Below, piece after piece: positions 2,140 through 56,550 of a DNA stretch of 64,000 nt. This stretch comes from a virus. The number at the start of each line of letters is the position of its first letter. Positions within the stretch are counted from its first letter, which is position 1. The translations under genes and the position numbers were made by a program. Below the pieces are notes generated by a model that saw nothing but the letters and a program-made list of their open reading frames with translations, made no database searches and was not told the origin of the DNA. The DNA is taken from positions 32,001 through 96,000 of IMG/VR virus record IMGVR_UViG_3300045988_147517. One strand, given 5' to 3'.

Positions 2140-5100
2140 TAATCACACCCACTATAGCCGCAATCATCGTTAATGCAATGACCGCAACCACCTTCCGCAA
2201 CATAGGTTCTCTGTCCACATTTTGGACAAATTCCTAAATTGCTATTCTCCACTTCATTCTTTAGGTTTGTAACACCGCTAAGGAAATCTGTCAATTCTTT
2301 CATAGTGTTCTGTTCTTCACAAGTTTTACAGCGCGGCTCTGGGATATCAAAAACTCTAGAAACCGCTTCATTCACAATCTCTTCTTCACTATAATCATCA
2401 TCAATCAACTCTTCTTTGATTTGATTTGCCATCTCTTGCAATGCGATTCCCACTGCGGCAGGACAGCAATTCCCCGGCGAAACATCATGTTTAGTCGCCC
2501 TTCGCACCATATAACTAACGCAACCCGGGCAACTCTTTGCTTGGTCTACAATTCCCTCTACTGTTCCACCAAGGCGCATCGCATAAGAAATCATGCGAGA
2601 GCCAAATACCATCCAAGAATTACAGCCGCCCTCTGAGCCTTTGCTTAAAAATGTTTCGCAAAGTTCGCCATCTACTGGGTCAAAGAAAGCTGTTGTGTGT
2701 AAAGAGCCACACCCAGTAACAAGTTTGTGTTTTCTTCCCACAACATCGTCATAAACTTGAACCACATCACCTCGATTAAGTACCTGTAGAGGACGGGTTT
2801 CTTCTTTTGGCGGCTCTTCTTCTTGGTTGTTCACAAGGACACCAGCCCGGTCACAGCCATCTCTATAAACTGTAATGCCTTTAAGGCCTTGTTTCCACGC
2901 CTCATAGTATAATTCAAATACATCTTTAACTGTGGTATATTCAGGGAGATTTACTGTAGAACTAATTGATGCATCGATATGTTTTTGCCAAGCCGCCTGC
3001 ATAGCAATACGTTCTTTATACGGAATCATTGGCGCTGTTACAAACCAACTAGGTAAATCCGCTTCATTATCAATATTATTTTCCTGCATATATTCTTCTA
3101 CAATTGGAGTATATACTTTATACCAATACTCTTGACCATGAAGTGATTCTGTTTTTCTCATATAAGAATTGGCGAAAATGGGTTCCATCCCACCGGATAC
3201 ACCTAGCATTGTGCTAGTACTGCCCGTTGGGGCCACAGTCAACAGTTGCAAATTTCTCAACCCATATTTACGAATATCTTCATATAATTTGTCTGTTACA
3301 TGTGAATTTAAGAAAGGAGAATCTAGCACCGCGCCAGAAAACCTCGGGGCTGGGCCGAATTCTTTTGCTAACTCCATAGATGATTCGAGAGCGCATGAAA
3401 CGATGAATTCACCAATATTATCAGCTAATTTTAAAGACTCCTCACTTCCGTATCTTATTTTCAATTTAATCAGTAAGTCAGCCCATCCCATAACTCCTAG
3501 GCCGATTTGCCTGTAATTTCTTACACTTTCACGTTGATATTCTAGGGGGTGTAATTCCAACCCTTCATCTAAAACTTCATTCAAATAAATTACTGCATTT
3601 TTGACAGTAAATTTCAAAGAATCCCAATCAACTTTTCCATCTTTTTCAAATTGCGCCAAGTTAATTGAGCCAAGTAAACAACTACCTCCTTCTGGTAATG
3701 GTTCTTCTGCACCTTACCACACATAGTTTCCTATGCCATCTAATATAGATGTTGTAGTCTGGACTATATCATCCGTTATTTTATAAAAATAACAGGTGGG
3801 CGCTGGACAATAAATTGCCACTTAGTCTCTGAACCTTCCCCTGTTCGGGGCTTGGATGCTGATTGCCCAATCCATACATTTTTTAACATTCACGCCTAGA
3901 TTTATTTCATTCTTACGTTGTAGTATGTATGGCTCTAAGGGGTTTCCAGCAGTTCACCCACTTTTAAATCCGCATACACTTTACGGATTAACCCCACCAT
4001 ATTGAAAATCAGGGTCTTCACTTAATAAATTATAGTCATTAATTCTATCCCAGAATAATAATCCGGGTTCAGCCTGCCGCCAATTCATCTCTGCTAAACG
4101 CATAAATACATCTTGAGCATTAATTACTTTGGTAATTTCTTCTCCTGTCTCTTGACGATAATATTTTAATGTATATTCTTCATCATTGATAACAGCATTC
4201 ATAAATTCATCTGTTACTTTAATTGAGATATTTGCCTTAGTAACTTTTCCAGCCTCCGATTTTAAATCAATAAAATCTTCAAGGTCTGGATGGCTACAAT
4301 CAAGGCTAATCATCAATGCCCCCAATATGGACTATCTCTTACCACTAATCTAGTGGCTCGGGCGCTAATGTAGTCTTATTGTTATCCTCAACTACTAGTC
4401 TCTGCACGTCCTATATACCTTTTACATTATATAGTTTCGCTCAGGGTTCTTGGGTCTTCCCTGAATTCACCCAATTCAAGACGCAGGGCATTAGCTTTGT
4501 TATACTTTCTATATAATACAATAAATGAATCGTTAGGATATATATAATCTAAAAATTTTAAAACATCTTTTTTGCTAGAAAATCCTAATATAAAACAATC
4601 TTCTTTTCCTTTTGGCTTTATCTTAGATGATACTCCAACCTCATCTATTAAAACATTCTGAACACCTTCTAATAAACGGTATTGAGAAGTAAATGAAATT
4701 CTTTGCCATATCCTATTTCTGTCTTTCCTTCTTCCCCAAGTAATACACCCATCTCCATCAAAAAACCCAAGAATTAAATATCTTTTAAGGTCTTTTCTTA
4801 CAATTGGCAAATGACGGCTGTTCTTTTTTCCACCATATTTATTAATATCTGTAAGTATATTTTTATTATATATTGTATATCTTGCTCTTGGGAACCTCCT
4901 AGATTCCCTATCTAAGTATGTGGTTTCATGAACATTTCCACCAATAATTTGAGATATATAATATAGTATTTCTTTATCAGCTAATGAAACAGATAACTCA
5001 ACACACTTATCTCCAATGTATCCATCCGCTAATATAAATCCTAAGATATATGCTTTTTCTGGGGTATCAATCTTATTAAACATGTATTCATTTTTATACT

Positions 5101-13856: not shown

Positions 13857-14041
13857 ATGTACCTCCTTTTTTCTATAATAATTATACCACACCCCATGCA
13901 TTTTGTCAACAGGGTATGGTATTTTTCTTTAAATATTTCTAAATTCAAAAGCAATCCTAATTTAATTAATTACAAATATTTTTATAAAGCTCTATTTCTT
14001 AAAAATGCTTTAAAAAGCAAACAATTATAAAAATTTATTTT

Positions 14042-14944: not shown

Positions 14945-15083
14945 CTTACCATTAAACTTTCTAATACTTCATTCTTTATAATGTCGTAAAGCATATCTTG
15001 TGCTACTTTTTCCATAATTGAATTATTCCCATTAATATCTAAATCCATCGCTTGTTTTAGATAATAAGACAAAGGCTCCCCTT

Positions 15084-15163
15084 ATTTAGGCACATTTTCA
15101 CGCTTCTCGCTCAAGCACTACAATAAGTACAGTATCAACGAGCTATCCCCGTCCTAACAGCGG
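15084..15163 (-). ncRNA. TnpB-associated guide-scaffold RNA (omega-RNA-like), orphan copy A
   Basis: Minus-sense CCGCUGUUAGGACGGGGAUAGCUCGUUGAU-[ACUGUA CUUAU UGUAGU]-GCUUGAGCGAGAAGCGUGAAAAUGUGCCUAAAU. It is homologous to the RNA directly downstream of tnpB and has no ORF. Confidence 0.7.
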
Positions 15164-15300
15164 TTCTTGCTAACGATTTGTCAATCTTTGATTAACTCCT
15201 TTTCTCTCTGGGAATCAAATTCAAAATCCTCATTCGATTCTGGTATTTCATAAGGGTCATGGTCATAGCACCACATACAACCATCACATTCCTTTGTTCC

Positions 15301-15329
15301 ATTATAACATAATAGCGCCAATATGTCAA
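15301..15329 (-). promoter_or_regulatory. sigma-70/A-type promoter
   Basis: TTGACA (15329-15324), 17-nt spacer, TATAAT (15306-15301). It lies upstream of scaffold copy A. Confidence 0.65.
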
Positions 15330-15616
15330 CCTTCTTTCGGTTTATCTTCAATTATATTCTTTACTTCCTCCACAAATTCTTTATTGCGTTCCGTGCTTTT
15401 AATCCTACAATGCCGAATTTGTAGCAGTGTTATAAATGCTACAATCCCCAAGATTACTGCCATAAGTCTGGCTTGTACAATTGTAACTCCTAGTCGTCCA
15501 AGCAAATGATAAAAATTAAAAAGATTGTCTGTCGCAAATCCGAAAACAACCATTATACTAAAAACAACAAAAATCGCTTCAAAAAAGCACCATAAAATAT
15601 TTTTAATTTTGTCCAT
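15326..15616 (-). CDS. membrane protein
   Basis: 96 aa with three hydrophobic segments and a GGAGG RBS. Confidence 0.55.
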   Translation of the reverse strand: MDKIKNILWCFFEAIFVVFSIMVVFGFATDNLFNFYHLLGRLGVTIVQARLMAVILGIVAFITLLQIRHCRIKSTERNKEFVEEVKNIIEDKPKEG

Positions 15617-15632
15617 ACTGCCTCCATGCTCG

Positions 15633-16382
15633 TCAATTTACTTCTAAAATTCTATCATATAGCACATGAAATTCGCTGATATAATCTCCTTGCTCAATCA
15701 TAAGCCCCATAGGTATAACTTTATTATTTCCTTCTAATTTATGAAGGCATAAATCATCTTCTATATGGTAATGACCAGCGAACCATTTATCAAATTTAAC
15801 CGCGTTTAAAATTTCATCACTCAAAAAATTTGTAAACACATTGGGTTCAAACCACCTATCTCTCAAAAGTCCAACATAGGTAGGTATATCATGTGTAATA
15901 ATATAATCTACCTCATTATTATTTCTTTGCAAATTATTTATCGCATTTAAACATTCTTTATTATTCGGAACTTCCTCTGGCCACCAATCTAATCCGGGCG
16001 TCCTTAATTCTTTATCATGAGATGGCGCACCCCCTAGTGCCAAAAACTTTTTATCTTCAATAATAAAAATTTCTCCACGCATCAGGTGGTATACGCTGTC
16101 ATTAATTTTATGTGCTTTTCCGCCAAATAAATTAACTGTTTCGAATTCGTTTAATAAGTGGTGATTCTCATGATTTCCATCAATAAATAAAGTTGTGAAT
16201 GGTTTATTGTCGAACCATTTCTGCCAATACTTATCTGTATTGCTATTGTCCCACACCACTCCAAAATCGCCACAGACAATTAAGTAATCCCGCTTAGTGA
16301 GTTGGCGCTGTTCAGGCCATGCTTTCGTAGTGAGTTTATGAATATCTATAGGGCAATGTACATCACCTGTCACAAAAATCAT
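15633..16382 (-). CDS. calcineurin-like metallophosphoesterase
   Basis: Motifs in order: GDVHC, CGDFG, DGNHENH, THDIP, AGHYH. Confidence 0.75.
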   Translation of the reverse strand: MIFVTGDVHCPIDIHKLTTKAWPEQRQLTKRDYLIVCGDFGVVWDNSNTDKYWQKWFDNKPFTTLFIDGNHENHHLLNEFETVNLFGGKAHKINDSVYHLMRGEIFIIEDKKFLALGGAPSHDKELRTPGLDWWPEEVPNNKECLNAINNLQRNNNEVDYIITHDIPTYVGLLRDRWFEPNVFTNFLSDEILNAVKFDKWFAGHYHIEDDLCLHKLEGNNKVIPMGLMIEQGDYISEFHVLYDRILEVN

Positions 16383-16678
16383 TATTTCTCAACCTTTCTG
16401 CAATGCACATTTAAATTATTTGAATCCATATTGTAAATAATTCGTTCAATCACATAATAATTTCCATTCTTATAAACTTCTTCCCCAATTTGCGGGGTGT
16501 GAAAAGTTTTCACATGTTCTGGCTTACTATCGTTGGGAATAAGATAATAATATTGTTCTTCCATCATTTCTCCTATATCCTTATTATGCGTAGTTGTAAC
16601 CTTCCAATAAACAAAACACATTCCAACAACCATTACAACAACTATAATGGCGGTAATTATATTATATCTTATCTTCAT
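16382..16678 (-). CDS. membrane-anchored protein
   Basis: N-terminal transmembrane segment IITAIIVVVMVVGMCFVYW. Confidence 0.5.
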   Translation of the reverse strand: MKIRYNIITAIIVVVMVVGMCFVYWKVTTTHNKDIGEMMEEQYYYLIPNDSKPEHVKTFHTPQIGEEVYKNGNYYVIERIIYNMDSNNLNVHCRKVEK

Positions 16679-17091
16679 ATTTCCTTTTTCCTAAATAAAT
16701 TATTAAAGTGCTCCAGCGTATATATCGTGGCGCTATCCTTTTTAGGATAATCCATTACAATTATATGCGGGATTCCGTCTTTATCTTTTACGCCCTTAAT
16801 AATTTCATACTCATTCCCATATATATCAACATACACCGAATCGGTAGATTTAAACTCCTTATTTAATTCCACACGCCTAACAACTAGCCCTATAAGAAAC
16901 CCAATGATGGTGACACCCATCCAAATACTAGGCATAGCATTATTACCTAAGCCTAGCACTTTCATATACAAATCAAGTGTAAACATTCCATCATAGATAA
17001 ACACGCATATGACTAATGTTAAGACCGCTACCCCAACCCCACAAAACCCATAACGCAACCATGTTAAAATTGATTTTATTTTATCATTCAT
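16675..17091 (-). CDS. membrane protein
   Basis: Two transmembrane segments in the N-terminal half. Confidence 0.5.
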   Translation of the reverse strand: MNDKIKSILTWLRYGFCGVGVAVLTLVICVFIYDGMFTLDLYMKVLGLGNNAMPSIWMGVTIIGFLIGLVVRRVELNKEFKSTDSVYVDIYGNEYEIIKGVKDKDGIPHIIVMDYPKKDSATIYTLEHFNNLFRKKEI

Positions 17092-17121
17092 AAAAGTATC
17101 CTCTCATCCAAAAGTAGTTGG

Positions 17122-17676
17122 TTACATGATGTGGCCGTATCTTTGCAAAAGTCTTAAACCGTCAACCATTTCGCTTAAAGACTCGTCAAAATTATCAGAA
17201 GTTTCATCCTTACTTTCTTCTTCTTGTTCTTCCTCTTCGTCATATCCTATCATATCAACTATAAGCGCAAATGAAGTGAATATTTCTTCCTCAGAAACTT
17301 CTTCATTGTTTTCAATCTTTTCTTCAATTTTATTAAGATATTCTAAAGCATGTAAAAGTTTAAATGCTTCTGATATTTCGGAATTTTCATCCTCCAATTC
17401 AATGGCTGTCCTTTTTGTAGAGCCACAAGCTTTAGGTTCTGCATCGATGCACCATTCAGAGCTTACTTTTAATAATTCGCCGTCTTCCGCCTCTACAATA
17501 TAAGACTTTTCATTTTCACCCAATAATTCATCATGCCAAAATTCTCCTACTATCGGCATCATATCCATTTTATCATATGGCATTTCGATGCCCATTTCAT
17601 TGGTTAAAGCTTTCCCGGCTTCATAGACATTCTTACCTACAACCTCAATCATTTTTTCTTTACTAAATACTAGCAT
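17122..17676 (-). CDS. hypothetical acidic protein
   Basis: 184-aa ORF. Confidence 0.5.
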   Translation of the reverse strand: MLVFSKEKMIEVVGKNVYEAGKALTNEMGIEMPYDKMDMMPIVGEFWHDELLGENEKSYIVEAEDGELLKVSSEWCIDAEPKACGSTKRTAIELEDENSEISEAFKLLHALEYLNKIEEKIENNEEVSEEEIFTSFALIVDMIGYDEEEEQEEESKDETSDNFDESLSEMVDGLRLLQRYGHIM

Positions 17677-17707
17677 TTTGTTCTCCTTTTTTATATAAAT
17701 TTTAAAA

Positions 17708-17785
17708 ATTAAATATAATTCATGTTAACTTTAAACAATGGTAAAAGTCAATCAAATTTAAATACATTCTAATTTAAACACAGAT
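17708..17785 (-). repeat. two degenerate copies of the CRISPR-like repeat downstream of scaffold copy B
   Basis: Plus-strand 17756-17785 ATTTAAATACATTCTAATTTAAACACAGAT and 17708-17737 ATTAAATATAATTCATGTTAACTTTAAACA, compared with the consensus ATTTAAATACATCTCATGTTAAACACAAAC. Confidence 0.5.
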
Positions 17786-17850
17786 TCAACGCTTCTCGCT
17801 CAATAACCTTACGGTTAAGTATCAACGAGCTAACCCCGGTTTAACCTCGG
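17772..17850 (-). ncRNA. TnpB-associated guide-scaffold RNA, orphan copy B, with its own promoter
   Basis: Minus-sense CCGAGGUUAAACCGGGGUUAGCUCGUUGAUAC-[UUAACC GUAA GGUUA]-UUGAGCGAGAAGCGUUGAAUCUGUGUUUAAAU. It starts about 7 nt after a perfect -10 box. Confidence 0.7.
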
Positions 17851-17857
17851 TTCTTTG

Positions 17858-17886
17858 ATTATAACATATAATTTTTGTTATGTCAA
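17858..17886 (-). promoter_or_regulatory. consensus promoter driving scaffold copy B
   Basis: TTGACA (17886-17881), exactly 17 nt, TATAAT (17863-17858). No ORF lies between it and the RNA. Confidence 0.7.
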
Positions 17887-17895
17887 ATTTATTTT

Positions 17896-18237
17896 TTAAT
17901 CATCCCATTCAATATCTGGGTATGGATTTCTATTAATTTCGTCTATATAGAATTCCCCGTAAAACCAATCTTTTAAATTGATATATATTTCATTTATTTC
18001 TTGCAATGTTTTTTCGATAAATTCATTTATTTCTTCGTCATCATATTTATTATCAGCAAAATACTTTTCACTATTAAATATTTTACAAAATGGATAAGAA
18101 TGCACTTCAACTTTTACATGAATGCACCAACCACAATAGCGATAATTTATAATTATATCAAATGGCAAGTCGTATAAATCGTATAATTCTTTACATTCTT
18201 TTGTTTTATTTTCATAATAATATTTTTTAGTAATCAT
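17896..18237 (-). CDS. hypothetical protein
   Basis: 113-aa ORF with AGGGGT RBS, located between the repeat array and scaffold copy B. Confidence 0.5.
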   Translation of the reverse strand: MITKKYYYENKTKECKELYDLYDLPFDIIINYRYCGWCIHVKVEVHSYPFCKIFNSEKYFADNKYDDEEINEFIEKTLQEINEIYINLKDWFYGEFYIDEINRNPYPDIEWDD

Positions 18238-18264
18238 TTTACCCCTACTTTATTTAAACATTCC

Positions 18265-18492
18265 ATTCAAATACATCTCGTGTTAAACACAAACTTTGGC
18301 ACTTGATGTCTATTTTTTCTGGAAATTAAAATTTAAATGCATCTCATGTTAAACACAAACCCCGGCATCTATTACCGGAGACAAACAAATAGTAAGATTT
18401 AAATACATCTCATGTTAAACACAAACCCTAATCGTCTATATCTGCGCCTTTTAGAATATCTAATTTAAATACATCTCATGTTAAACACAAAC
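18265..18492 (-). CRISPR. CRISPR-like mini-array: 4 x 30-nt repeats, 3 x 36-nt spacers
   Basis: Repeats are at 18265-18294 (2 mismatches), 18331-18360 (1 mismatch), 18397-18426 and 18463-18492, with an exact 66-nt period. In crRNA sense the repeat is GTTTGTGTTTAACATGAGATGTATTTAAAT, containing the hairpin ACAU-GAG-AUGU. The spacers are unique. Confidence 0.75.
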
Positions 18493-18513
18493 TATAGTAT
18501 TTATCTCATTCTC

Positions 18514-18591
18514 ATTACGCTAACATTTGATGCTTCTCACTCGATAGTCTAATGACTAAGCATAAATGAGCTATCCCCGGTTTAACCTCGG
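18514..18591 (-). ncRNA. guide-scaffold RNA (omega-RNA / tracr-like), copy C, immediately 3' of tnpB
   Basis: It begins 11 nt after the tnpB stop: CCGAGGUUAAACCGGGGAUAGCUCAUUUAUGCU-[UAGUC AUUA GACUA]-UCGAGUGAGAAGCAUCAAAUGUUAGCGUAAU. The 3' boundary is uncertain. Confidence 0.7.
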
Positions 18592-18602
18592 TTGGTGGTA
18601 AG

Positions 18603-19751
18603 TTAATTTACCAGCCGCTTTCCTTCTTTTAGAATATTTTTAGCGGCATTTATATCCCTATCCTCTTTGTAGCCACAAACCGGGCATACAAAGGTTTTTT
18701 CGGATAAAATATTCTCTTCTATTACATGTTCACACTTATGGCACGTCTTTGAGCTTGGGAAAAATGTATTTACTTGTACATATTTATGGCCATATTCTTC
18801 TGCTTTATACGCTAACATTTGGCAGAAATTAAAGTACCCTATATCGGTAATAGCAGAATTAAAATTTTTCTTTGTTCTATTTAAAAACCCTTCTTTCTCT
18901 TTATTCTGTTTCATCATTTCTTGCAATTTAAGTTTCTCAACCGCAATAATTTTATTATCTCTCGCAATCTTCCTACTCAAATTATGTGCGAAATATGCTC
19001 TTTGTCTAGCAATTTTCTGATGAACTTTCGCTACTTTAATACGTTGTTTTTCGTAATTTTTACTACCACGTTGACAATGACTTAATTTGCGTTGCTCTCT
19101 GGCTAAACGTTCTTTGCTTTTCTTATAGTAGTTAGGATAATCTGGAATACTTCCTTTATTATCCACAAAGTAATCTCGTGATGAAAAATCAAGCCCGATG
19201 GATTGGGATTTCCCTTTCTTCTGTTTCATTTTAAATTCAATGCAGAAGGCAATATAGTATTCCCCTGATGGTGTCCTAGAAAGTGTTGCATCACATATTT
19301 TTGCATCATCTGGAATTGGCCTATCAACAATCATTTTGACGGTTGTTGACAATTTTGGAATTTTAACTCTATTACCTTCAATACGCAACCCATTACCGCC
19401 AACTGTATTTCTCGTTTTAAAGCTATCCCTACATCTACCACGCTTCTTAAATTTAGGAAATCCGGGCTTTTCCCCATTTTTTAATCTTCTAAAAAAGTTT
19501 TTATACGCCTGTTCTAAATCCCGCTGAACAAAATTTAAGGCATGTGCATCCACTTCTTTTAACCAAGTATTATCTGCTTTATATGAAGCGTAGCTCGTCT
19601 TTAATGACTTCCCCGTCTCTTCATAATGCTTTATTTTGTCAGCAAGCATAGCATTCCAAATCCATCTGCAAGCGCCAAATGTTTTATTTAAATATTCTCT
19701 CTGTTCTTTATTTGGGTAGATACGATATTTATAACCTCTAACTACTAACAT
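18603..19751 (-). CDS. tnpB: TnpB-like RNA-guided RuvC nuclease (IS200/IS605 OrfB family), stand-alone
   Basis: Contains YKYRIYPNKEQ, RuvC-I IGLDFS, RuvC-II IAVEKL, the zinc ribbon CHKCEH..CPVCGY and RuvC-III DRDINAAKNI. The protein is 382 aa. Confidence 0.9.
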   Translation of the reverse strand: MLVVRGYKYRIYPNKEQREYLNKTFGACRWIWNAMLADKIKHYEETGKSLKTSYASYKADNTWLKEVDAHALNFVQRDLEQAYKNFFRRLKNGEKPGFPKFKKRGRCRDSFKTRNTVGGNGLRIEGNRVKIPKLSTTVKMIVDRPIPDDAKICDATLSRTPSGEYYIAFCIEFKMKQKKGKSQSIGLDFSSRDYFVDNKGSIPDYPNYYKKSKERLAREQRKLSHCQRGSKNYEKQRIKVAKVHQKIARQRAYFAHNLSRKIARDNKIIAVEKLKLQEMMKQNKEKEGFLNRTKKNFNSAITDIGYFNFCQMLAYKAEEYGHKYVQVNTFFPSSKTCHKCEHVIEENILSEKTFVCPVCGYKEDRDINAAKNILKEGKRLVN

Positions 19752-19779
19752 TTTCTTACCTCATCAACTTTATGTCTAT

Positions 19780-19808
19780 ATTATATCATGTTGGCGCTTA
19801 CTTGTCAA
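19780..19808 (-). promoter_or_regulatory. consensus promoter of tnpB
   Basis: TTGACA (19808-19803), 17 nt (containing GCGCCAA, as in other promoters in this window), TATAAT (19785-19780). Confidence 0.7.
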
Positions 19809-20236
19809 CCATTTTTAAAAAAATTTTTTATTTTTTCTTTCTTCTCATTGCACTGTTTACTTTCATAGCCGTTACAACTATACCTATTATCACAATCTTT
19901 GCACATATTTATAATAGTATACACCGCTTCTTCTTTTGTAGTCGGGAAATCTATTTCAAAATCTTCTGGTGGCGTGTAGATACTATCGTCCTCACTCTCA
20001 TATTTTTCTTTTATTCTTTGCTTCTCTTCCTTCGGCAAACTCAATACTTCATCCCGCACTCTCTTAAAAATTCTTTCATTATCCACTGATAGATTCTGGC
20101 GCGATTTTTCTTCATTTTTCTGAGCAATCATCTCTTCTAACAACTTATCTCGCTCTTCCTCTGGAAGGGATTCTATAATCGGAACCAACCAATTTTCGAC
20201 AAACTCTTTCATAGTCATTACACAATCTTTACTCAT
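19805..20236 (-). CDS. hypothetical acidic protein
   Basis: 143-aa ORF with AAGGAG RBS. It is not a transposase. Confidence 0.5.
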   Translation of the reverse strand: MSKDCVMTMKEFVENWLVPIIESLPEEERDKLLEEMIAQKNEEKSRQNLSVDNERIFKRVRDEVLSLPKEEKQRIKEKYESEDDSIYTPPEDFEIDFPTTKEEAVYTIINMCKDCDNRYSCNGYESKQCNEKKEKIKNFFKNG

Positions 20237-20262
20237 TAACTCTCACTCCTTACTTTACATAC

Positions 20263-20291
20263 ATTATAATACATTGTTTGCATGTTGTCAA
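20263..20291 (-). promoter_or_regulatory. consensus promoter
   Basis: TTGACA (20291-20286), 17 nt, TATAAT (20268-20263). Confidence 0.65.
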
Positions 20292-20362
20292 CAGTTTTTA
20301 TAAAAAATGTCTAAATATTTATAAAATCATTAAAAGGGCATTTTTATTGACAAAATGGCAGT

Positions 20363-23884: not shown

Positions 23885-24029
23885 ATTATACCTCTTTCTT
23901 TTTAAAACCCCTAGTAGTCAATCGGCCAAAATTAGTTTTATTATTATTTAAATTTAAACTGTAAAATAAACACCTACTAGGGGCATAGCGGCCTTCGAGA
24001 GATTGTAATCGCTCCCTCACCATATCTAT

Positions 24030-24058
24030 ATTATACAACAAAAGCGCCAATATGTCAA
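24030..24058 (-). promoter_or_regulatory. consensus promoter
   Basis: TTGACA (24058-24053), 17 nt, TATAAT (24035-24030). Confidence 0.65.
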
Positions 24059-24083
24059 TAGATTTCTGGCGCTTTTTAAAATT

Positions 24084-28637: not shown

Positions 28638-28727
28638 TTAGTTAATTAAAATACCGCCAACATATTCAATATATTCGTATGCCGCCTTTGGCGATTCCAC
28701 AACATCATTTTTGCCAATCGTTTCCCA
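28638..28727 (-). pseudogene. orphaned ancestral 3' end of the upstream gene (diverged duplicate of 28826-28915)
   Basis: Ungapped hand alignment gives 68 of 90 nt identical to the real 3' end. It translates as WETIGKNDVVESPKAAYEYIEYVGGILIN*, against WDAIAKDDVIESPEKAYEYIETVGGILIN*. It retains the original stop, RBS and junction to the next gene. Confidence 0.75.
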
Positions 28728-28802
28728 ATTTAGGTGTACTAATGTACTTCTCACTCGATAGCATAGCTAAGCATAAATGAGCTAACCCCGTCCTAACAGC
28801 GG
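28728..28802 (-). ncRNA. TnpB-associated guide-scaffold RNA, orphan copy D
   Basis: Minus-sense CCGCUGUUAGGACGGGGUUAGCUCAUUUAUGCU-[UAGC UAU GCUA]-UCGAGUGAGAAGUACAUUAGUACACCUAAAU. It is followed directly by the orphaned gene fragment. Confidence 0.7.
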
Positions 28803-28825
28803 TTATTGTTGGTGCTATATAATTA

Positions 28826-29248
28826 TTAATTGATTAATATGCCGCCAACAGTTTCAATATACTCATAGGCTTTTTCAGGCGATTCTATAACATCATCTTT
28901 AGCAATCGCATCCCAAGAATATTTACCCGCATATCGGGTAAAAGCCTTTTGAAAATCAACACCTTTTTTATTTTTATACAATACAATTTCATCCCACATT
29001 CTTTGACTACTCACCACAATATTATCATGCGCCATGTTTACTATTGTATTCGGCCCCATAACTCTATACCCTTTAACGTCATGCGGGATTGTCCCAATGC
29101 CATGGCAATAATGACAAACACTTTGTAAAAGGGGGTATCCCGCTTTTAAACCACGAGCATACCCCTTACCACCACATTTCGGGCAACATACTTCATCTAC
29201 GCGAAACGTTCCTTCTTTAATATAATATACTTCGTCTCCTAGTTCCAA
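28826..29248 (-). CDS. DnaJ-type zinc-finger (CxxCxGxG) protein
   Basis: Contains CPKCGGKGY and CHYCHGIGT. Probable TTG start behind AAGGAGGG. Confidence 0.55.
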   Translation of the reverse strand: MELGDEVYYIKEGTFRVDEVCCPKCGGKGYARGLKAGYPLLQSVCHYCHGIGTIPHDVKGYRVMGPNTIVNMAHDNIVVSSQRMWDEIVLYKNKKGVDFQKAFTRYAGKYSWDAIAKDDVIESPEKAYEYIETVGGILIN

Positions 29249-29275: not shown

Positions 29276-29350
29276 TGGTGCGGGGACTGGGAATCGAACC
29301 CAGTTTTCAGGCGTATAAGACCCGCGCACTAACCGATGTACTATCCCCGT
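29276..29350 (-). tRNA. tRNA-Ile (anticodon UAU)
   Basis: Hand-folded cloverleaf: acceptor ACGGGGA/TCCCCGC, anticodon arm CGGGT-CTTATAC-GCCTG, T arm CTGGG-TTCGATT-CCCAG, and an encoded CCA. Position 1:72 is an A.C mismatch. Confidence 0.75.
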
Positions 29351-34084: not shown

Positions 34085-34387
34085 TACCTCATTTCTCCTT
34101 TCTATTCCCCACTTTCCAACTATATATTATAGATTGACGGGGACTTTCCAACTTTTTAAAAGCTACTTTGAAATTCATTTTTAAATTTCTACGCTACGTT
34201 TAAATTCATTCAGGCCATCAATTCTTTTACTTGTTCTTTAGGAAACCAATTTTCTTTTTATTTTTCTACTTTTAAAATCATTTTTTTTATAACGTAATCA
34301 TTTTTTACTTTATTACGTTATAAATTATCTACTGGCGCGTAGCGACAGGTAGATAAGAATTGATAGTGAAGAGAATAAACACAGCTT

Positions 34388-34416
34388 ATTATAATACAAT
34401 TTCAGCAAGATGTCAA
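34388..34416 (-). promoter_or_regulatory. consensus promoter with a ~300-nt structured leader
   Basis: TTGACA (34416-34411), 17 nt, TATAAT (34393-34388). Confidence 0.6.
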
Positions 34417-34938
34417 TACCTTTTTAAAATATATTAAATTATCAAAGACCAATTAAGTTTTCATTAAGATAACAATTTTGTTTATTAGCGCGGCATAGTA
34501 ATATTAAATAAGAATTTCACCAGTTAAGCCTCCATTCACTATCTAAAATTTCTATTATTGGCGCTATATAAATTTACTAAAATTATCTTACGCAGTTTTT
34601 ATTATTTGTGTATTATAAATATGTCAAAATCCATAAGCTTTTTAATTTTATCATCTTTTATCTATATGTATATTGTTCCCAGTTTAAATGTATTTTTATC
34701 TTGTATTAATTTTTTATCATCGCTTACTTCATTTTGTTTCCATATAAATATTGCCAATTGTTACCTTGCCAATCAATCATATGGCGCTAGATTTTTCAAT
34801 CTATCCTTTTCATATTTACAATATTATTATACTACAAAAAATAATATTTGTCAACAGAAAATTTAAAATATTTTATTTTTTTTATTTTAATTAAATTGAA
34901 TTATAAAATGTTTGTTTTTTTTAATTTAAATATTATAT

Positions 34939-35063
34939 CCCCCGGAAATTTTGATTCGCATTTTACCTTTTTGGATTTTTCTACAATTATCCCGGGAATT
35001 TTTATTTCACATTTTACCCCATTTTGTATATTGCCCCGGGAAATTAGGTATATGTTTTACCCT
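34939..35063. repeat. three copies of a ~30-bp dyad motif CCCC(G)GGAAAtTTt..CATTTTACC
   Basis: Copies are at 34939-34967, 34991-35020 and 35034-35063. They appear as GC-rich islands in AT-rich spacer. Confidence 0.7.
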
Positions 35064-35453
35064 TTTTCCTTATTTATGCCTAAATTTTAAAGTTTTTATT
35101 ATAAACTTTGTTAAACAATTCTAACATTTTATAGATTATAATTATATTCTATGGCAATATATTTTTTAAAATAAAATTTTATCTGATATTTTTTCATTTA
35201 TAATTATTCAGTTTTCAAAGACCGCTCTTATTTCTTTTGTATCTATATTATAGCATACTTAAAGGGGTAGCGATAGTCCCCATCGAAAATTTTTTGTCAA
35301 GCATTTTTTTTATAAAAATAGATTTATTAAGAATATATTAAGATTAATATGGCGATTTAAGGCGATTATTTTTTACGAGCCTATAGATATATCCTATTAT
35401 CAAACAAAGTCTCTATATGGTTAAAATTAAACGATTACATATATAAATACAGA

Positions 35454-35478: not shown

Positions 35479-35698
35479 AATCATATATTACTGGGTGACT
35501 ATCTATAATTTCTTGTCGATATTTTACAGTGGGGCTGTTATCATACCCCCACACAAAAGCATAAAATACACCACAAAATAATATAATTATTAGTAGTCCA
35601 CAAAACAACTTTTTTAGAATTTCTTTCAGTGTATTTTCTGTAAAGAATTCATATACACTTAAAACAATTTTACCGATGGCTCTTTTTAATTTCTTCAT
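35477..35698 (-). CDS. small membrane protein
   Basis: 73 aa with the transmembrane segment LFCGLLIIILFCGVFYAFVW. It has its own promoter and terminator. Confidence 0.55.
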   Translation of the reverse strand: MKKLKRAIGKIVLSVYEFFTENTLKEILKKLFCGLLIIILFCGVFYAFVWGYDNSPTVKYRQEIIDSHPVIYD

Positions 35699-36127
35699 GT
35701 TTATACCTCATTTCTTATGATATATATATTATACATTATATACAATATCATGTCAAGTGATTTTGTACAAAAATGAAAAATTATTTAAAGAAATCCAAAA
35801 TAAAACCCTAGTTTTTATTACCCAAAACTGCATGGAAATTTTGTACAAAATAAAATCCTCATATTTCCTTTTATAGGCGTTTTAAAAAATTTTAGGTATA
35901 AATATACCTTTGAAATTTTAACCTGAAATCAATCGTTTACATCGGTATATATATAAAAACGTTTACAATTCATTGCAGGAGTGGCGGCTAACAGGTATTA
36001 GCTGAAATTCTCTTGCCCACTTGACGCTTTCTTTATTTGATTATAGTTAAATTATACACTATTTTATAAATCTTGTCAAGCATTTCTTAAATATTTTTTT
36101 TATTTTGTTAACGTTTACATTTTTCAT

Positions 36128-38794: not shown

Positions 38795-39082
38795 TTAGAC
38801 ATTTTCGATACAATAATAGTAACGTTCAATTTCAATATAACCATATTCTTCAAGTGTTTCACAAAAATTTAAATACCGCCATCTTTTATAATCGTCATAA
38901 TCATAAAAACCATTTGCGCCATATTCATCAATGTAATCGTGATATTCTTCTACTAAACAATAGCTCTCATTGCAATAGTCAAGAATGTCTCCATAGAAGT
39001 TTTCTTTACTTAATTCAATTTTTTCTAACGTTTCTTTATCCTGCCGATAACACTTTAATTCTTGTGATTTTTTCATTTTCAT
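38795..39082 (-). CDS. hypothetical early protein
   Basis: 95-aa ORF with the conserved leader AAATGAGGT. Confidence 0.5.
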   Translation of the reverse strand: MKMKKSQELKCYRQDKETLEKIELSKENFYGDILDYCNESYCLVEEYHDYIDEYGANGFYDYDDYKRWRYLNFCETLEEYGYIEIERYYYCIENV

Positions 39083-39150
39083 AACCTCATTTCATTTCTT
39101 ATTATGGTTATATTATACACCATATATATTTACTTGTCAAGCGTTTTTTT

Positions 39151-39429
39151 TTAATCTTTTAACAATTTTATATAATCTTTAATGGTTTTTAGCTGAATAA
39201 ATAAGTAAAATGGTGTAGAGGAGGGCTTATTTCTTCTAATACTCTTTAAAAATTCATATCCTACACCTGTAATTTCAGATAATTCCATCAAAGTATAATA
39301 TTCAAAAACAGCACTAAAATATTCTTTTGCATTTTTTTTATTTTCTTCCCATTCTTTCTTCAATGCAGATATCTTTTCAATATCCGCAATCATTTCACCC
39401 ATAACAATTTCCTTGTCTAAATTATTCAT
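39151..39429 (-). CDS. hypothetical protein, possible HTH
   Basis: Start moved to MNNLDK behind GGAGG. LSEITGVGYEFLKSIRR looks HTH-like. Confidence 0.45.
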   Translation of the reverse strand: MNNLDKEIVMGEMIADIEKISALKKEWEENKKNAKEYFSAVFEYYTLMELSEITGVGYEFLKSIRRNKPSSTPFYLFIQLKTIKDYIKLLKD

Positions 39430-40504: not shown

Positions 40505-40855
40505 TCACAAAAACTTTTTTTCTATATTAAAATTAGAATTATTCATACGGAATGAACTTGTTCTACCCATATATTTAACACATTCATGAAATTCTTTGCC
40601 AAATTGTTCTTCACACCATTCGTTAAGGCAATAAAAGTTATCTTCACAAAATACATCGAAATTATCTTTTAGAATATCATCTGTTAATATTTCTTTAATA
40701 TTTTCAGGTATGTTTAAATCACTTTTATTACAAAAGGCACAATCATATAATTTTAAATTTGTATATTTATGAAATGCTTCGTTGCTTAAATATTTTTCCA
40801 ATGAATCTAATATTTCATTTGCTTTTTGAATTTTTTCACTAATTTTCATCTTCAT
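40505..40855 (-). CDS. hypothetical early protein
   Basis: 116-aa ORF with the leader AACGAGGT. Confidence 0.5.
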   Translation of the reverse strand: MKMKISEKIQKANEILDSLEKYLSNEAFHKYTNLKLYDCAFCNKSDLNIPENIKEILTDDILKDNFDVFCEDNFYCLNEWCEEQFGKEFHECVKYMGRTSSFRMNNSNFNIEKKFL

Positions 40856-40935
40856 AACCTCGTTTCATTTGTTATTATGTGTATATTATACACCATGTAC
40901 TTTTGCTTGTCAAGTATTTTTTTTTATTTTTTTTT

Positions 40936-41145
40936 TTAATCAATAATTGCGCCCCAGTTAATATGATGAGGGTTCACATAATATTCTTTATGATAAAATA
41001 ATACATGGCTTTCTGCATGAGTTCCGCCATAAGTGATAATCTTTTGATTATTTAATGTGAATTTTGCCCCCAAACAAAAACTTAAGGTCAAACTCAATCC
41101 AAACAATAAACCGAACGCTACCTTTTTAATTTTCTTTGTTTTCAT
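40936..41145 (-). CDS. small secreted or membrane-anchored protein
   Basis: MKTKKIKKVAFGLLFGLSLTLSFCLG has a signal-peptide-like N-terminus. The start was chosen downstream of the predicted transcription start. Confidence 0.45.
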   Translation of the reverse strand: MKTKKIKKVAFGLLFGLSLTLSFCLGAKFTLNNQKIITYGGTHAESHVLFYHKEYYVNPHHINWGAIID

Positions 41146-41216
41146 TTTATTACCCCGTTTCATTTCTTACTATGGTTATATTATACACGTTTTGAAATAT
41201 TATGTCAAGACTTTTT

Positions 41217-41257
41217 TTAAAAAAAATAAATAAAAAAAACAGGGGATAAACCCCTGT
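41217..41257 (-). terminator. rho-independent terminator
   Basis: ACAGGGG-TTTAT-CCCCTGT followed by a long T-run on the minus strand. Confidence 0.65.
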
Positions 41258-42047: not shown

Positions 42048-42247
42048 TTTTTCTTACCTCGTTTCTTTATTTTATGTTTACATTATACACTATATAATCT
42101 GTCTTGTCAAGTACTTTTTTATTTTTTTTCGTTTTTTTTATTTTGACCCCCGTTTCTTTAACTTGATTACATTATACACTAATAGCGCCAATATGTCAAT
42201 GGTTTTTTAAAAATATAAATAAAAAAAATAGAGTAGCGTAAACCACT

Positions 42248-42788: not shown

Positions 42789-42962
42789 TTAAATTTTCCT
42801 CCATTCATTTTTAATTTTGAGTGGGTACTTTCCAACTCATTCTTAAATAATAAGGTGGGGTTTCCACCTTTTAAAAGCTACTTTAAAATTCATTCTTAAA
42901 ATTAAAAAATTATTTTCAAATTCATTTTACTTTTTATAAAACTATTTTTAAATTCATTCTTT

Positions 42963-43247
42963 TTAAAGTTTGAAAATTTTGATACTTTTTAAATCAACAT
43001 TTAAAAACAAACCAATAACTTTATATATTAACGAAAGCACAATTTTACCTAAACATACAATAATAAAATTCAATGTACAATTGCCTATAATATTTAAATA
43101 AATATTGAAATCTTGTTCTGGCGCAACTCCTAATAATATTATTATCAAAATCGTCACCATAGCATATAAAAATGCCGCAATCCATAAAATTGATTGGCCA
43201 ATATAAAATATTATATACAATTTGTCAATTAGTGACATATTTTTCAT
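42963..43247 (-). CDS. membrane protein
   Basis: 94 aa with three hydrophobic segments. Confidence 0.5.
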   Translation of the reverse strand: MKNMSLIDKLYIIFYIGQSILWIAAFLYAMVTILIIILLGVAPEQDFNIYLNIIGNCTLNFIIVCLGKIVLSLIYKVIGLFLNVDLKSIKIFKL

Positions 43248-43273
43248 CTTTATTTCCCTTCCAAATTTCCTCC

Positions 43274-43579
43274 TTATTTTTTCTTCATTGATTTTAAAAA
43301 TTTATTGAAACTCTCTTCGTTCCAACCTTGCGCTACATTAAATATTGCATTCTCTGGGGCGGCTTCTGCTTTTGTAAAGTATTCATCGATTATCATATTT
43401 GTATCATCTTTGACAGTTTTAATACAGACATATCGATTTCCAAAATCGCCCTTGTTATTTCTCTTGTCCAGTAAAAAAGATGTTTCAACTACCATTTTTC
43501 TATTGGCGCTTATATATTCTTCCCGATATGGGAAAACCATATTTGTTCTTTTTGTTTTTGGTTTTATTTTTTCATTCAT
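43274..43579 (-). CDS. hypothetical protein
   Basis: 101-aa ORF with AAGGAGG RBS and a TTGACT-N17-TATAAT promoter at about 43600-43628. Confidence 0.5.
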   Translation of the reverse strand: MNEKIKPKTKRTNMVFPYREEYISANRKMVVETSFLLDKRNNKGDFGNRYVCIKTVKDDTNMIIDEYFTKAEAAPENAIFNVAQGWNEESFNKFLKSMKKK

Positions 43580-56455: not shown

Positions 56456-56472
56456 TTTTATAATCAAACCAA

Positions 56473-56550
56473 CCGTTGTTAGGACGGGGATAGCTCGTTG
56501 ACACTTAACCATAAGGTTATTGAGCGAGAAGTACGTTAGTATGCCTAAAT
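56473..56550 (+). ncRNA. TnpB-associated guide-scaffold RNA, orphan copy E (plus strand)
   Basis: CCGUUGUUAGGACGGGGAUAGCUCGUUGACAC-[UUAACC AUAA GGUUA]-UUGAGCGAGAAGUACGUUAGUAUGCCUAAAU. It starts 17 nt after the tRNA-Thr CCA end, in the same orientation as local transcription. Confidence 0.7.

What the first reader, a model, noticed from the sequence alone, without database searches (positions are those of the whole stretch)
18514..18591. Five-member family of a ~78-nt structured RNA with compensatory base changes; only one copy is next to tnpB
Five copies are present, each oriented with local transcription: A 15084-15163(-), B 17772-17850(-), C 18514-18591(-), D 28728-28802(-) and E 56473-56550(+).

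All share this architecture: CCG-loop-CGG hairpin, GGGRUAGCUC, a central hairpin, GAG(C/U)GAGAAG, a small hairpin, and YYUAAAU.

The central hairpin keeps its position but has four different stem sequences:
- B and E: UUAACC/GGUUA
- A: ACUGUA/UGUAGU
- C: UAGUC/GACUA
- D: UAGC/GCUA

The enclosing stem also covaries, from CUCG/CGAG to CUCA/UGAG.

The modules are mosaic. The 5' hairpin type is shared by A, D and E versus B and C, while the central type is shared by A, B and E versus C and D. This implies recombination among copies.

Selection on structure together with adjacency of copy C to tnpB argues for an omega-RNA-like scaffold. The orphan copies would let one nuclease be programmed from several loci.
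Basis: seen in the sequence. Interest (0 to 1): 0.9.

Follow-up and report, generated by a model that had tools for sequence, protein, structure and literature searches.

The report
Phage TnpB guide-RNA scaffolds, one feeding CRISPR
The five repeated RNAs are guide-RNA scaffolds (omega-RNAs) for the phage's small TnpB nuclease. The copy next to the nuclease gene lacks its own guide end and runs into a CRISPR array, so this looks like a rare natural link between transposon guides and CRISPR.

Summary
There are exactly five copies at the stated coordinates, where none are expected by chance. The compensatory changes are real.

The family is the core scaffold of the ISDra2-type TnpB omega-RNA. 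It has stem 1, stems 2 and 3, stem 4, and a pseudoknot between the stem-1 loop and the last 8 nt before the guide.

- **Link to tnpB:** related scaffolds lie just downstream of a same-strand tnpB in 7 of 12 viral loci and about 31 of 44 bacterial loci.
- **Nuclease:** the window's TnpB matches ISDra2 TnpB (E = 6.5e-58) and keeps its RuvC residues.

The new part is copy C, the only tnpB-linked copy. It lacks the pseudoknot 3' strand and is followed by a four-repeat CRISPR array. The array's repeats share their last 20-21 nt with Clostridium type I-B repeats. Each repeat's 3' end can supply stem 4 and the tail.

The module tnpB, tail-less scaffold, array recurs in phages whose TnpB is only 72% identical (dN/dS about 0.1), with different spacers. 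This resembles a TranC-like split guide. Function is untested.

The parts
18603..19751 (-). tnpB, 382 aa, an ISDra2-like RNA-guided nuclease
   Evidence: Pfam HTH_OrfB_IS605, OrfB_IS605 and Cas12f1-like_TNB. Matches ISDra2 TnpB 8h1j/8exa at E = 6.5e-58, with D (GLDFSS), E (IAVEKL) and D (EDRDINAA) aligned to the catalytic positions. dN/dS is 0.06-0.13 against relatives.
19780..19808 (-). Sigma-70-type promoter upstream of tnpB
   Evidence: TTGACA-17-TATAAT, 12 of 12 matches, with a TG extension.
18533..18594 (-). Copy C: stems 1-3 and the GAGUGAGAAG core, with stem-1 loop AGGUUAAAC. It has no pseudoknot 3' strand of its own (tracrRNA-like scaffold).
   Evidence: No tail was found downstream of the core. 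The same tail-less form follows tnpB in L151-L154 and L180-L183.
18521..18532 (-). Putative anti-repeat, that is, the 5' strand of stem 4 (CAUCAAAUGUUA), directly after GAGAAG
   Evidence: It pairs 10 of 12 with repeat nt 10-21 (UAACAUGAGAUG). The register is the same in four loci. Duplex energy is -10.4 kcal/mol (45 of 1000 shuffles as good); for L152 it is -14.2 (1 of 1000). Folding of L152 and L181 reproduces the pairing.
18493..18520 (-). Leader-like spacer segment with the conserved motif GRGAUAAAUACU. It may be the loop of an expanded stem 4.
   Evidence: Conserved in window, L006, L152, L154 and L180.
18265..18492 (-). CRISPR array 1. Four 30-nt repeats GTTTGTGTTTAACATGAGATGTATTTAAAT: R1 18463-18492, R2 18397-18426, R3 18331-18360, and a degenerate R4 18265-18294. 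Three 36-nt spacers.
   Evidence: (family D3). Weak Rfam CRISPR-DR3 match. The 3' 20-21 nt are identical to type I-B repeats of C. autoethanogenum and C. chauvoei.
17772..17853 (-). Copy B: C-type scaffold with its own promoter. Its apparent tail GUUUAAAU comes from a degenerate repeat that was fused on by a 37-nt deletion.
   Evidence: (alignment with L006-B).
17858..17886 (-). Promoter ending 4 nt before copy B
   Evidence: TTGACA-17-TATAAT, 12 of 12 matches, with TG.
17708..17782 (-). Decayed CRISPR array 2: a degenerate repeat (17756-17782), a 19-nt spacer, and a terminal degenerate repeat (17708-17736)
   Evidence: The array is intact in relatives L006 and L181 (three repeats, two spacers).
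15084..15166 (-). Copy A: complete standalone scaffold (loop GUUAGG, tail CCUAA). The predicted guide is 15064-15083, which overlaps the ribosome-binding site of the next gene.
   Evidence: Identical in L181-L183. A promoter lies about 135 nt upstream at 15301-15329.
28728..28805 (-). Copy D: complete standalone scaffold. The predicted guide is 28708-28727.
28638..28727 (-). Remnant copy of the last 29 codons of the upstream gene (28826-29248). It begins exactly at the first base of D's predicted guide.
56470..56550 (+). Copy E: complete standalone scaffold, 14 nt after tRNA-Thr. The predicted guide is 56551-56570.
   Evidence: Its MFE fold shows stems 1-4, z = -2.8.

Best explanation
The five elements are guide-RNA scaffolds (omega-RNA, also called reRNA) of the ISDra2-type TnpB family. 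They serve the single TnpB nuclease encoded at 18603-19751.

Each scaffold folds into:
- stem 1 (CCG/CGG) with a 9-nt loop;
- stem 2 (CUCR/YGAG) enclosing a variable stem 3;
- a stem 4;
- an 8-nt tail. Tail positions 1-6 pair with the stem-1 loop to form a pseudoknot (positions 2-6 in copies A, D and E).

The 16-20 nt that follow the tail are the guide.

**Copies A, D and E** are complete single-molecule guides that stand alone. TnpB made from the C locus would load them in trans.

**Copy C** lacks the tail. The segment right after its GAGAAG core is complementary to the middle of the CRISPR repeat. The repeat's last 8 nt (AUUUAAAU) match C's loop (GGUUAAAC). Each repeat-spacer unit can therefore supply stem 4, the pseudoknot strand and a guide. 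The first unit can do this in cis and later units in trans. C would then act like a tracrRNA and the array like crRNAs, as in TranC or early type V systems.

**Copy B** is a second C-type scaffold whose array has decayed.

Shown here: family identity, structure, linkage to tnpB, conservation of the tnpB-scaffold-array module, and spacer turnover.
Inferred: RNA expression, loading into TnpB, use of the array by TnpB, and the targets.
For: **Copies are real and non-random:**

**Linkage to tnpB:** 7 of 12 divergent viral loci. About 31 tnpB-linked against 13 orphan among real bacterial hits.

**Architecture matches the ISDra2 omega-RNA core**:
- The pseudoknot register holds across 86 unique sequences, with A:G at tail position 7 and loop position 3 in 82 of 86.
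- Covariation on 51 distinct sequences: 92.3% of cells paired against 80.9% in shuffles (0 of 500 as high). 72 double-change cells against 17.6. Slid controls give 22-48%. All 6 pseudoknot pairs change on both sides.
- G:U pairs are frequent, which points to RNA on this strand.

**TnpB:** homologous to ISDra2 TnpB with an intact RuvC triad.

**Split-guide part:**
- Among 144 scaffolds with downstream sequence, an exact-repeat scan found arrays only after tail-less C-type copies (window C, L154); the arrays after L152/L153 and L006-B were identified by reading the sequence.
- tnpB, tail-less scaffold, leader, array recurs in L151-L154 and L180-L183. These are syntenic phage genomes.
- tnpB has dS of 1.5-1.9 between lineages and dN/dS of 0.06-0.13.
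- Stem 2 in these copies carries two further compensatory pairs (GCCUA/UAGG).
- The anti-repeat pairs in the same register in four loci, and the pairing is predicted by folding for L152 and L181.
- Spacer sets differ completely between close relatives.

**Precedent for trans-acting standalone omega-RNAs:**
Against: - No expression or binding data exist.
- No protospacer was found for any of about 16 spacers or for the guides of A, B, D and E. Neither a TAM nor any targeting could therefore be shown.
- The repeats are of the host type I-B kind. The array could work only with host Cascade, as known viral mini-arrays do.
- The repeat hairpin is palindromic, so part of the anti-repeat complementarity comes for free. 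For the window and L006-B the duplex is only marginally better than shuffles (45 and 220 of 1000).
- Close relatives (IMG/VR contigs 3300045988_118521 and _129962) keep A, B, D and E but show no tnpB in the roughly 30 kb sampled.
- Single-sequence folding z-scores are modest, -0.85 to -2.9.
Confidence: 0.8

Rival explanations
1. The array is an ordinary viral mini-array that borrows the host's type I-B Cas proteins to attack competing phages. TnpB merely sits next to it. Copy C is a truncated omega-RNA with no role in reading the array. Only A, D and E, or none of the copies, serve TnpB.
For: - The repeat's 3' 20-21 nt, the 30-nt repeat length and the 35-38-nt spacers equal those of Clostridium type I-B arrays.
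- Viral mini-arrays with host-identical repeats are well known.
- Relative L006 has array 1 with no tnpB or scaffold in front of it.
- Spacer turnover needs an adaptation machinery that the phage does not visibly encode.
Against: - The tail-less scaffold is kept in front of the array across lineages whose tnpB is saturated at synonymous sites.
- The scaffold's structure is maintained by compensatory changes.
- Its loop is complementary to the repeat's terminal UUUAA.
- The anti-repeat register fits the position of stem 4.
- Without the array, no tnpB-adjacent copy in this lineage offers a guide.
Confidence: 0.35
2. The orphan copies are inert relics: solo right ends or miniature non-autonomous IS200/IS605 derivatives left behind by past insertions. 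They have no present function.
For: - About 30% of bacterial family members are also orphans. Some follow an LE-like hairpin (L010, L040, L048, L113), as miniature elements do.
- Copy B and a relic beside D' in L001 and L181 are visibly decaying.
Against: - A, D and E keep every stem and the pseudoknot despite sequence divergence. For example, the loop and tail changed together from the bacterial GGGAC:GUC type to UUAGG:CCUAA.
- The A-copies of the window and L006 differ only by structure-neutral changes.
- All copies lie in the sense of transcription, directly before genes. B has a perfect promoter placed to start at the scaffold.
Confidence: 0.15
3. The standalone copies are cis-acting 5'-UTR elements. 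The RNA, alone or bound by TnpB, controls translation or processing of the gene immediately downstream, whose ribosome-binding site lies inside the 'guide'.
For: - The tail is followed at once by a ribosome-binding site and start codon in A (AAGGGGAG), L004 and L013.
- Every copy shares the orientation of its downstream gene.
Against: - The same scaffold in most relatives is simply the 3' flank of tnpB.
- The downstream genes are unrelated to one another, with no Pfam hits in common.
- No ligand-type conserved pocket is evident beyond what the TnpB complex explains.
Confidence: 0.1
4. The scaffolds mimic the type I-B CRISPR repeat (hairpin plus an AUUUAAAU-like handle). They act as RNA anti-CRISPRs that soak up host Cas6 or Cascade.
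For: Stem 4 plus the tail of B-type scaffolds (and the relic in L001) resembles the repeat's 3' half. RNA anti-CRISPRs made from single repeat units are known.
Against: - A, D and E carry CCUAAAU, which covaries with their own loop rather than matching the repeat.
- The other 60 nt of the element are explained by TnpB binding.
- The wider family has unrelated tails (UAUGUCAC).
Confidence: 0.05

Closest known systems
ISDra2 TnpB omega-RNA (reRNA), Deinococcus radiodurans IS200/IS605
   Same: - Same order of elements: stem 1, with the pseudoknot 5' strand in its loop; stem 2 enclosing stem 3; stem 4; the pseudoknot 3' strand 2 nt before the guide. A non-canonical A:G pair flanks the pseudoknot.
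- It lies at or just after the 3' end of tnpB.
- The protein matches ISDra2 TnpB at E = 6.5e-58.
   Different: - The conserved part here is shorter (about 80-95 nt against 116) and lies wholly downstream of the stop codon.
- The phage copies have a 4-bp stem 4 and a changed pseudoknot sequence.
- No tnpA and no room for a left-end hairpin: only 11 nt lie between the upstream TTGAT and the tnpB ATG.
Standalone (orphan) omega-RNAs acting in trans (Altae-Tran et al. 2021, as summarised in PMC10691335)
   Same: Scaffold plus guide without an adjacent effector, in a genome that also encodes the effector. They are proposed to add target sites without duplicating the nuclease.
   Different: - Here they are in a phage genome, in 5' UTRs of phage genes.
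- They show no transposon ends.
- One (D) is flanked by a duplicated gene end.
TranC, transposon-CRISPR intermediates (LaTranC, PDB 9jfo; Jin et al. 2025, recalled from memory and)
   Same: - A TnpB-lineage nuclease next to a CRISPR array.
- A guide apparently split into a tracrRNA-like scaffold and repeat-derived crRNAs.
- Single-molecule guides coexist with the array.
   Different: - The protein is only 382 aa and much closer to ISDra2 TnpB than to LaTranC (E = 7e-18, C-terminal part only).
- It is phage-borne.
- The repeats look captured from a type I-B system rather than grown from the omega-RNA.
- The split is inferred, not demonstrated.
Viral CRISPR mini-arrays that exploit host Cas proteins
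   Same: A short array without cas genes in a phage. The repeats are of the host type and the spacers vary between related phages.
   Different: It is preceded by, and apparently base-pairs with, a TnpB guide scaffold. That arrangement is conserved across diverged phages.
Cas12f (type V-F) tracrRNA/sgRNA
   Same: From memory only: the Un1Cas12f1 tracrRNA shares the words GAACCG, GGGGAUUAG and CGAGAAG. Its pseudoknot is formed with the repeat's end.
   Different: This was not tested here beyond recollection. The Cas12f proteins in PDB match only the TNB/RuvC end of the window protein.

Membership tests
TnpB omega-RNA (ISDra2 type) | Encoded at or just downstream of the 3' end of tnpB, on the same strand | tested here: met
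   Met for copy C (9 nt after the stop codon). Also 7 of 12 viral relatives and about 31 of 44 bacterial relatives. Copies A, B, D and E are orphans.
TnpB omega-RNA (ISDra2 type) | Stem 1, stem 2, stem 3 and stem 4, plus a pseudoknot between the stem-1 loop and the nucleotides just 5' of the guide | tested here: met
   Covariation counts. Register and the A:G pair. Compared. Not met by copy C, which lacks the 3' strand.
TnpB omega-RNA (ISDra2 type) | The guide is the sequence flanking the scaffold's 3' end, and it targets a TAM-adjacent match | tested here: inconclusive
   The guides are defined by position only. No second match was found in the window and no empty sites were recovered. TTGAT precedes tnpB but may be coincidental, because L152 and L151 lack it.
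TnpB omega-RNA (ISDra2 type) | Binds TnpB and directs DNA cleavage | not testable with these tools
   Needs biochemistry.
TranC / minimal type V CRISPR-like system | A TnpB-lineage nuclease stably associated with a downstream CRISPR array | tested here: met
   Window, L152-L154 and L180-L183. tnpB is 72-96% identical, dS is 1.5-1.9, and dN/dS is about 0.1.
TranC / minimal type V CRISPR-like system | Guide functionally split into a tracrRNA and a crRNA that pair through an anti-repeat and the pseudoknot | tested here: inconclusive
   The tail-less scaffold correlates with array presence. The register is consistent and duplex energies are given. Folding supports the pairing in 2 of 4 loci. The repeat hairpin is palindromic, and no RNA data exist.
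Type I-B CRISPR array (host-dependent viral mini-array) | Repeat sequence, repeat length and spacer length of type I-B arrays | tested here: met
   30-nt repeat and 36-nt spacers. The 3' 20-21 nt are identical to repeats of C. autoethanogenum (type I-B operon) and C. chauvoei. The Rfam CRISPR-DR3 match is below threshold.
Type I-B CRISPR array (host-dependent viral mini-array) | Cas6/Cascade of the host processes and uses the crRNAs, and spacers match competing phages beside a type I-B PAM | tested here: inconclusive
   No protospacer was found. The host is unknown; one relative is annotated Holdemanella porci.
Any Rfam family (tRNA-like, riboswitch, ribozyme) | Match to a curated covariance model | tested here: not met
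   No hit on the copies at gathering threshold, nor at E <= 10 on 14950-18750. ARAGORN finds only three true tRNAs.

The most novel reading that the evidence does not exclude
A phage lineage has rewired an ISDra2-like TnpB of 382 aa to read type I-B-style CRISPR arrays. The omega-RNA's stem-4 3' strand, pseudoknot strand and guide were replaced by a captured type I-B repeat-spacer array. The remaining scaffold co-evolved an anti-repeat and a loop (GGUUAAAC) that pairs with the repeat's 8-nt handle.

If so:
- This would be a living example of type V CRISPR origin by capture of a pre-existing array rather than by duplication of omega-RNA segments.
- The same crRNAs, possibly including those of the host, could arm both host Cascade and the phage nuclease.
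- Three single-molecule omega-RNAs (A, D, E) would give fixed extra targets.
Probability: 0.3. Interest if true: 0.85.

Novelty: new variant of a known kind. Interest (0 to 1): 0.62.

Why it matters
The identity of the RNA is ordinary: it is a TnpB omega-RNA, and standalone copies are already known. Two things make it worth following up.

1. **Origin of type V CRISPR.** The published survey of TnpB and Cas12 says that insertion of tnpB next to an existing array "cannot be ruled out" as a route to type V CRISPR. This phage family may be a natural instance. It is conserved, under purifying selection, has turning-over spacers, and its repeats are recognisably type I-B. The hypothesis is directly testable with one small protein, one scaffold of about 100 nt and a short array.

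2. **A compact, multi-format guide system.** At 382 aa, with a scaffold core of about 80-95 nt, it would be among the most compact RNA-guided nuclease systems. It would naturally accept both single guides and array-encoded guides.

It also raises a question of phage biology: whether RNA-guided nucleases with several fixed guides drive marker exclusion or homing between related phages.

Tried and rejected
1. **tRNA-like element** (GGGGAUAGCUC resembles an acceptor plus D arm). ARAGORN and the Rfam tRNA model find only the three true tRNAs.
2. **Known Rfam riboswitch or ribozyme.** No hit even at E <= 10.
3. **'YYUAAAU' as a mimic of the type I-B 8-nt handle (RNA anti-CRISPR).** Dropped as the main reading once the tail was seen to covary with the scaffold's own loop.
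4. **tnpB plus C as a fresh IS insertion after the ISDra2 TAM TTGAT, with L006 as the empty site**. Weakened because the module is conserved in lineages that lack TTGAT. L006 is more likely a deletion derivative, but the direction remains ambiguous.
5. **Protospacer search to separate TAM from PAM.** Four spacer 20-24-mers against IMG/VR, eleven spacers against INPHARED, and sixteen against all held loci. Nothing above chance.
6. **Guides of A, B, D and E against the window.** Only self matches.
7. **More members of the phage lineage in JGI metagenomes.** Zero real hits in two scans.
8. **Empty sites for A.** Only two close relatives exist in IMG/VR, and both carry A.
9. **Left-end boundary or TAM from four 91-95%-identical tnpB elements (L004, L009, L014, L015).** The boundary could not be fixed.
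10. **MAFFT alignment of full-length scaffolds.** It misaligned the short phage tails, so a gapless alignment of fixed-length segments was used instead.

Full report
**1. Observation**

- The pattern GGGGWTAGCTC-N15-45-GAGYGAGAAG matches exactly these five sites. Expectation from 100 shuffles is 0.00.
- A profile built from relatives finds the same five (E = 2e-15 to 4e-9) and nothing else below E = 3.
- The central hairpins differ in sequence but still pair. The enclosing stem switches CUCG/CGAG to CUCA/UGAG. The hairpin types are distributed as a mosaic, as described.
- No Rfam family matches the copies at gathering threshold or at E <= 10. ARAGORN finds only three genuine tRNAs.

**2. Relatives and what they reveal**

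The same pattern finds 16 loci in IMG/VR and at least 120 in species-representative genomes. The genome hits are mostly rumen and gut Clostridia and spirochaetes.

Divergent members show a fuller architecture: (G)AACCG, a 9-nt loop, YGG, GGWUAGCUC, a variable hairpin, GAGYGAGAAG, a second hairpin, and an 8-nt tail such as UAUGUCAC or UAGUUCAC.

The tail is complementary to the 9-nt loop, and the two covary.
- Examples: GAACUA:UAGUUC, GGCGCA:UGCGUC, UUAGG:CCUAA (A, D, E), UUAAAC:GUUUAA (B).
- I built a gapless 56-column alignment from the fixed-length segments of 51 distinct sequences. On it, 92.3% of cells are paired against 80.9% in shuffles (0 of 500 as high).
- There are 72 double-change cells against 17.6. 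Slid controls reach only 22-48%. All six pseudoknot pairs change on both sides.
- Frequent G:U pairs point to an RNA on this strand.
- Single-sequence folding energies are only modestly better than shuffles, z = -0.85 to -2.9. The case for structure therefore rests on covariation.

**3. Identity**

In 7 of 12 divergent viral loci the scaffold starts just after a same-strand TnpB gene of 360-383 aa. Among real bacterial hits with at least 300 nt of upstream flank, about 31 are tnpB-linked and 13 are orphans. Nine hits are chance matches inside coding DNA.

The window's ORF 18603-19751(-):
- has the three TnpB Pfam domains;
- matches ISDra2 TnpB structures at E = 6.5e-58;
- has D, E and D aligned at the RuvC positions.

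The published ISDra2 omega-RNA core has the same layout: stem 1, a pseudoknot between the stem-1 loop and nt -5 to -3, stem 2 enclosing stem 3, stem 4, then the guide. It also has a non-canonical pair -2A:-106G. The same A:G pair appears here in 82 of 86 sequences.

The family is therefore the ISDra2-type omega-RNA scaffold. The guide is the sequence immediately 3' of the tail. Standalone omega-RNAs acting in trans are already described.

**4.

On the minus strand the order of elements is:
1. a perfect promoter (19808-19780);
2. tnpB;
3. copy C;
4. a leader-like stretch of about 28 nt;
5. four 30-nt repeats, GTTTGTGTTTAACATGAGATGTATTTAAAT, with three 36-nt spacers (18492-18265);
6. a 113-aa gene;
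7. a second perfect promoter;
8. copy B;
9. a decayed two-repeat array.

The repeat's last 20-21 nt are identical to the type I-B repeats of Clostridium autoethanogenum and C. chauvoei.

Copy C is the only copy without the pseudoknot 3' strand. In the alignment with relative L006, the part that C shares with the scaffold family stops 9 nt (CAUCAAAUG) after GAGAAG.

**5. A conserved module**

The closest TnpB homologues are 96% identical (P0001 cluster, on more than 100 contigs up to 119 kb) and 72% identical (P0002, P0003; one member is annotated Holdemanella porci).

All of them show promoter, tnpB, C-type tail-less scaffold (loop AGGUUAAAC), a leader with GGGAUAAAUACU, and a CRISPR array of the same repeat family ending AUUUAAAU or AUUUAAAC. 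For L151 the contig ends inside the scaffold, so only the first part could be seen.

- They sit at a syntenic place in related phage genomes of about 120 kb.
- tnpB is saturated at synonymous sites between lineages (dS 1.5-1.9) with dN/dS of 0.06-0.13.
- Stem 2 of these scaffolds carries two more compensatory pairs (GCCUA/UAGG).
- Spacer sets are entirely different between close relatives.
- Among 144 family scaffolds with downstream sequence, an exact-repeat scan detected arrays only after tail-less C-type copies (window C and L154). The arrays after L152/L153 and L006-B were identified by reading the sequence.

**6. Proposed mechanism for C**

The 12 nt right after GAGAAG (CAUCAAAUGUUA) pair with repeat nt 10-21 (UAACAUGAGAUG). 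That is where the 5' and 3' strands of stem 4 would lie. One nucleotide later, the repeat's last 8 nt (AUUUAAAU or AUUUAAAC) fit the tail. UUUAA pairs with the loop's UUAAA, position 7 is A, and the spacer follows as the guide.

- The register is the same in four loci.
- Duplex energy is -14.2 kcal/mol for L152 (1 of 1000 shuffles as good), -10.4 for the window (45 of 1000), -8.2 for L154 (45 of 1000) and -7.3 for L006-B (220 of 1000).
- Folding of scaffold plus leader plus the first repeat gives this structure for L152 (MFE and centroid) and L181 (centroid). It is ambiguous for the window.
- The first repeat-spacer can thus complete C in cis, and later units could do so in trans. This is the split described for TranC.

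Caveat: the repeat hairpin is palindromic, which inflates the complementarity.

**7. The other copies**

A, D and E are complete single-molecule scaffolds with a 4-bp stem 4. They are conserved in the relatives.
- A lies directly before a ribosome-binding site.
- E lies 14 nt after tRNA-Thr and before a short ORF, ahead of a DUF2828 gene.
- D is followed by a remnant of the last 29 codons of the upstream gene. The remnant starts exactly at the first base of D's predicted guide.
- In relatives, the D locus instead carries a 5'-truncated older scaffold with an AUUUAAAU tail. Repeated events at this site are evident, but I cannot explain how the gene end came to be duplicated.

B is C-type. In relatives it precedes an intact array 2. 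In the window, a 37-nt deletion fused it to a degenerate repeat, which supplies its apparent tail, and its anti-repeat is mutated. B is probably decaying.

**8. Limits**

- No target was found for any spacer or guide, so TAM and PAM could not be told apart.
- TTGAT, the ISDra2 TAM, directly precedes the tnpB 5' UTR, and relative L006 joins TTGAT to the leader. The 72% lineage lacks TTGAT. Insertion versus deletion is therefore unresolved, and L006 is more likely a deletion.
- The window has no close match among deposited phages.
- Nothing here shows that the RNAs are expressed or bound by TnpB.

**9. Verdict**

By itself this is a new member of a known kind.

The added finding is a conserved phage module in which a TnpB-size nuclease is followed by a tail-less omega-RNA scaffold and a type I-B-style CRISPR array, alongside three single-guide omega-RNAs. 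That is a new variant of the TranC / early type V theme and is worth an experiment.

Noticed in passing
window 3739-4020 (-): Group I catalytic intron (Rfam RF00028, 67.6 bits, full-length model match). The host gene was not examined. TnpB elements combined with group I introns (IStrons) exist in Clostridia, but this intron is 15 kb from tnpB.
   Followed up: no
window 28638-28727 and 28826-28915 (-); L001 1-290; L181 1100-1330: The last 29 codons of the 140-aa gene upstream of copy D are duplicated downstream of D, starting exactly at D's predicted guide. Relatives instead carry a 5'-truncated older scaffold (GAGUAGGAAG-hairpin-AUUUAAAU) plus a 17-nt remnant of the gene end. Events have recurred at one site, and the mechanism is unexplained.
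   Followed up: partly
window 56656-58191 (+), next to tRNA-Gln 56132-56207, tRNA-Thr 56382-56455 and copy E: A 511-aa DUF2828/DUF7788/VWA protein, annotated 'RNA-binding protein' in Enterococcus and Listeria phages (38% identity). A homologue also lies beside the scaffold in L008. The link to tRNAs or the scaffold was not examined.
   Followed up: partly
window 34146-35439 versus 42861-44159: Several repeat families (D6, D7, D10, D14, D18) recur at a constant offset of about 8715-8740 nt. This points to a diverged segmental duplication. It includes four copies of TATAYCCCCSGGAAATTTTGATTCGCATTTTACC and 32-nt tandem units at 42870-42960.
   Followed up: no
window, minus strand, e.g. 13878-13912, 15298-15336, 19770-19832, 20260-20294, 24027-24065, 34385-34423, 35686-35776, 36041-36103, 39070-39164, 40843-40937, 41138-41228, 42072-42206: A large family of near-identical sigma-70 promoters (TTGACA-17-TATAAT with conserved surroundings, often ...GCGCCAATATGTCAA on the plus strand). 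They drive many short early-type genes on the minus strand.
   Followed up: no
window 29276-29350 (-): tRNA-Ile with anticodon UAU, about 470 nt upstream of copy D on the same strand. This is an unusual anticodon for a bacterial-type tRNA-Ile.
   Followed up: no
L010, L040, L048, L113 (about 20-45 nt upstream of the scaffold): Some orphan scaffolds in bacteria and phages are preceded by a conserved hairpin, GUACGAAUSGAACRUCAUUCGU. This may be a left-end hairpin of miniature non-autonomous IS200/IS605 elements. The window's orphans lack it.
   Followed up: no
window 18360-18380 (-), inside spacer S2: Spacer 2 contains a G+C-rich hairpin (CUCCGGUAAUAGAUGCCGGGG) followed by the U-rich start of the next repeat. 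The simple scan flagged it as terminator-like, and it might truncate array transcripts.
   Followed up: no
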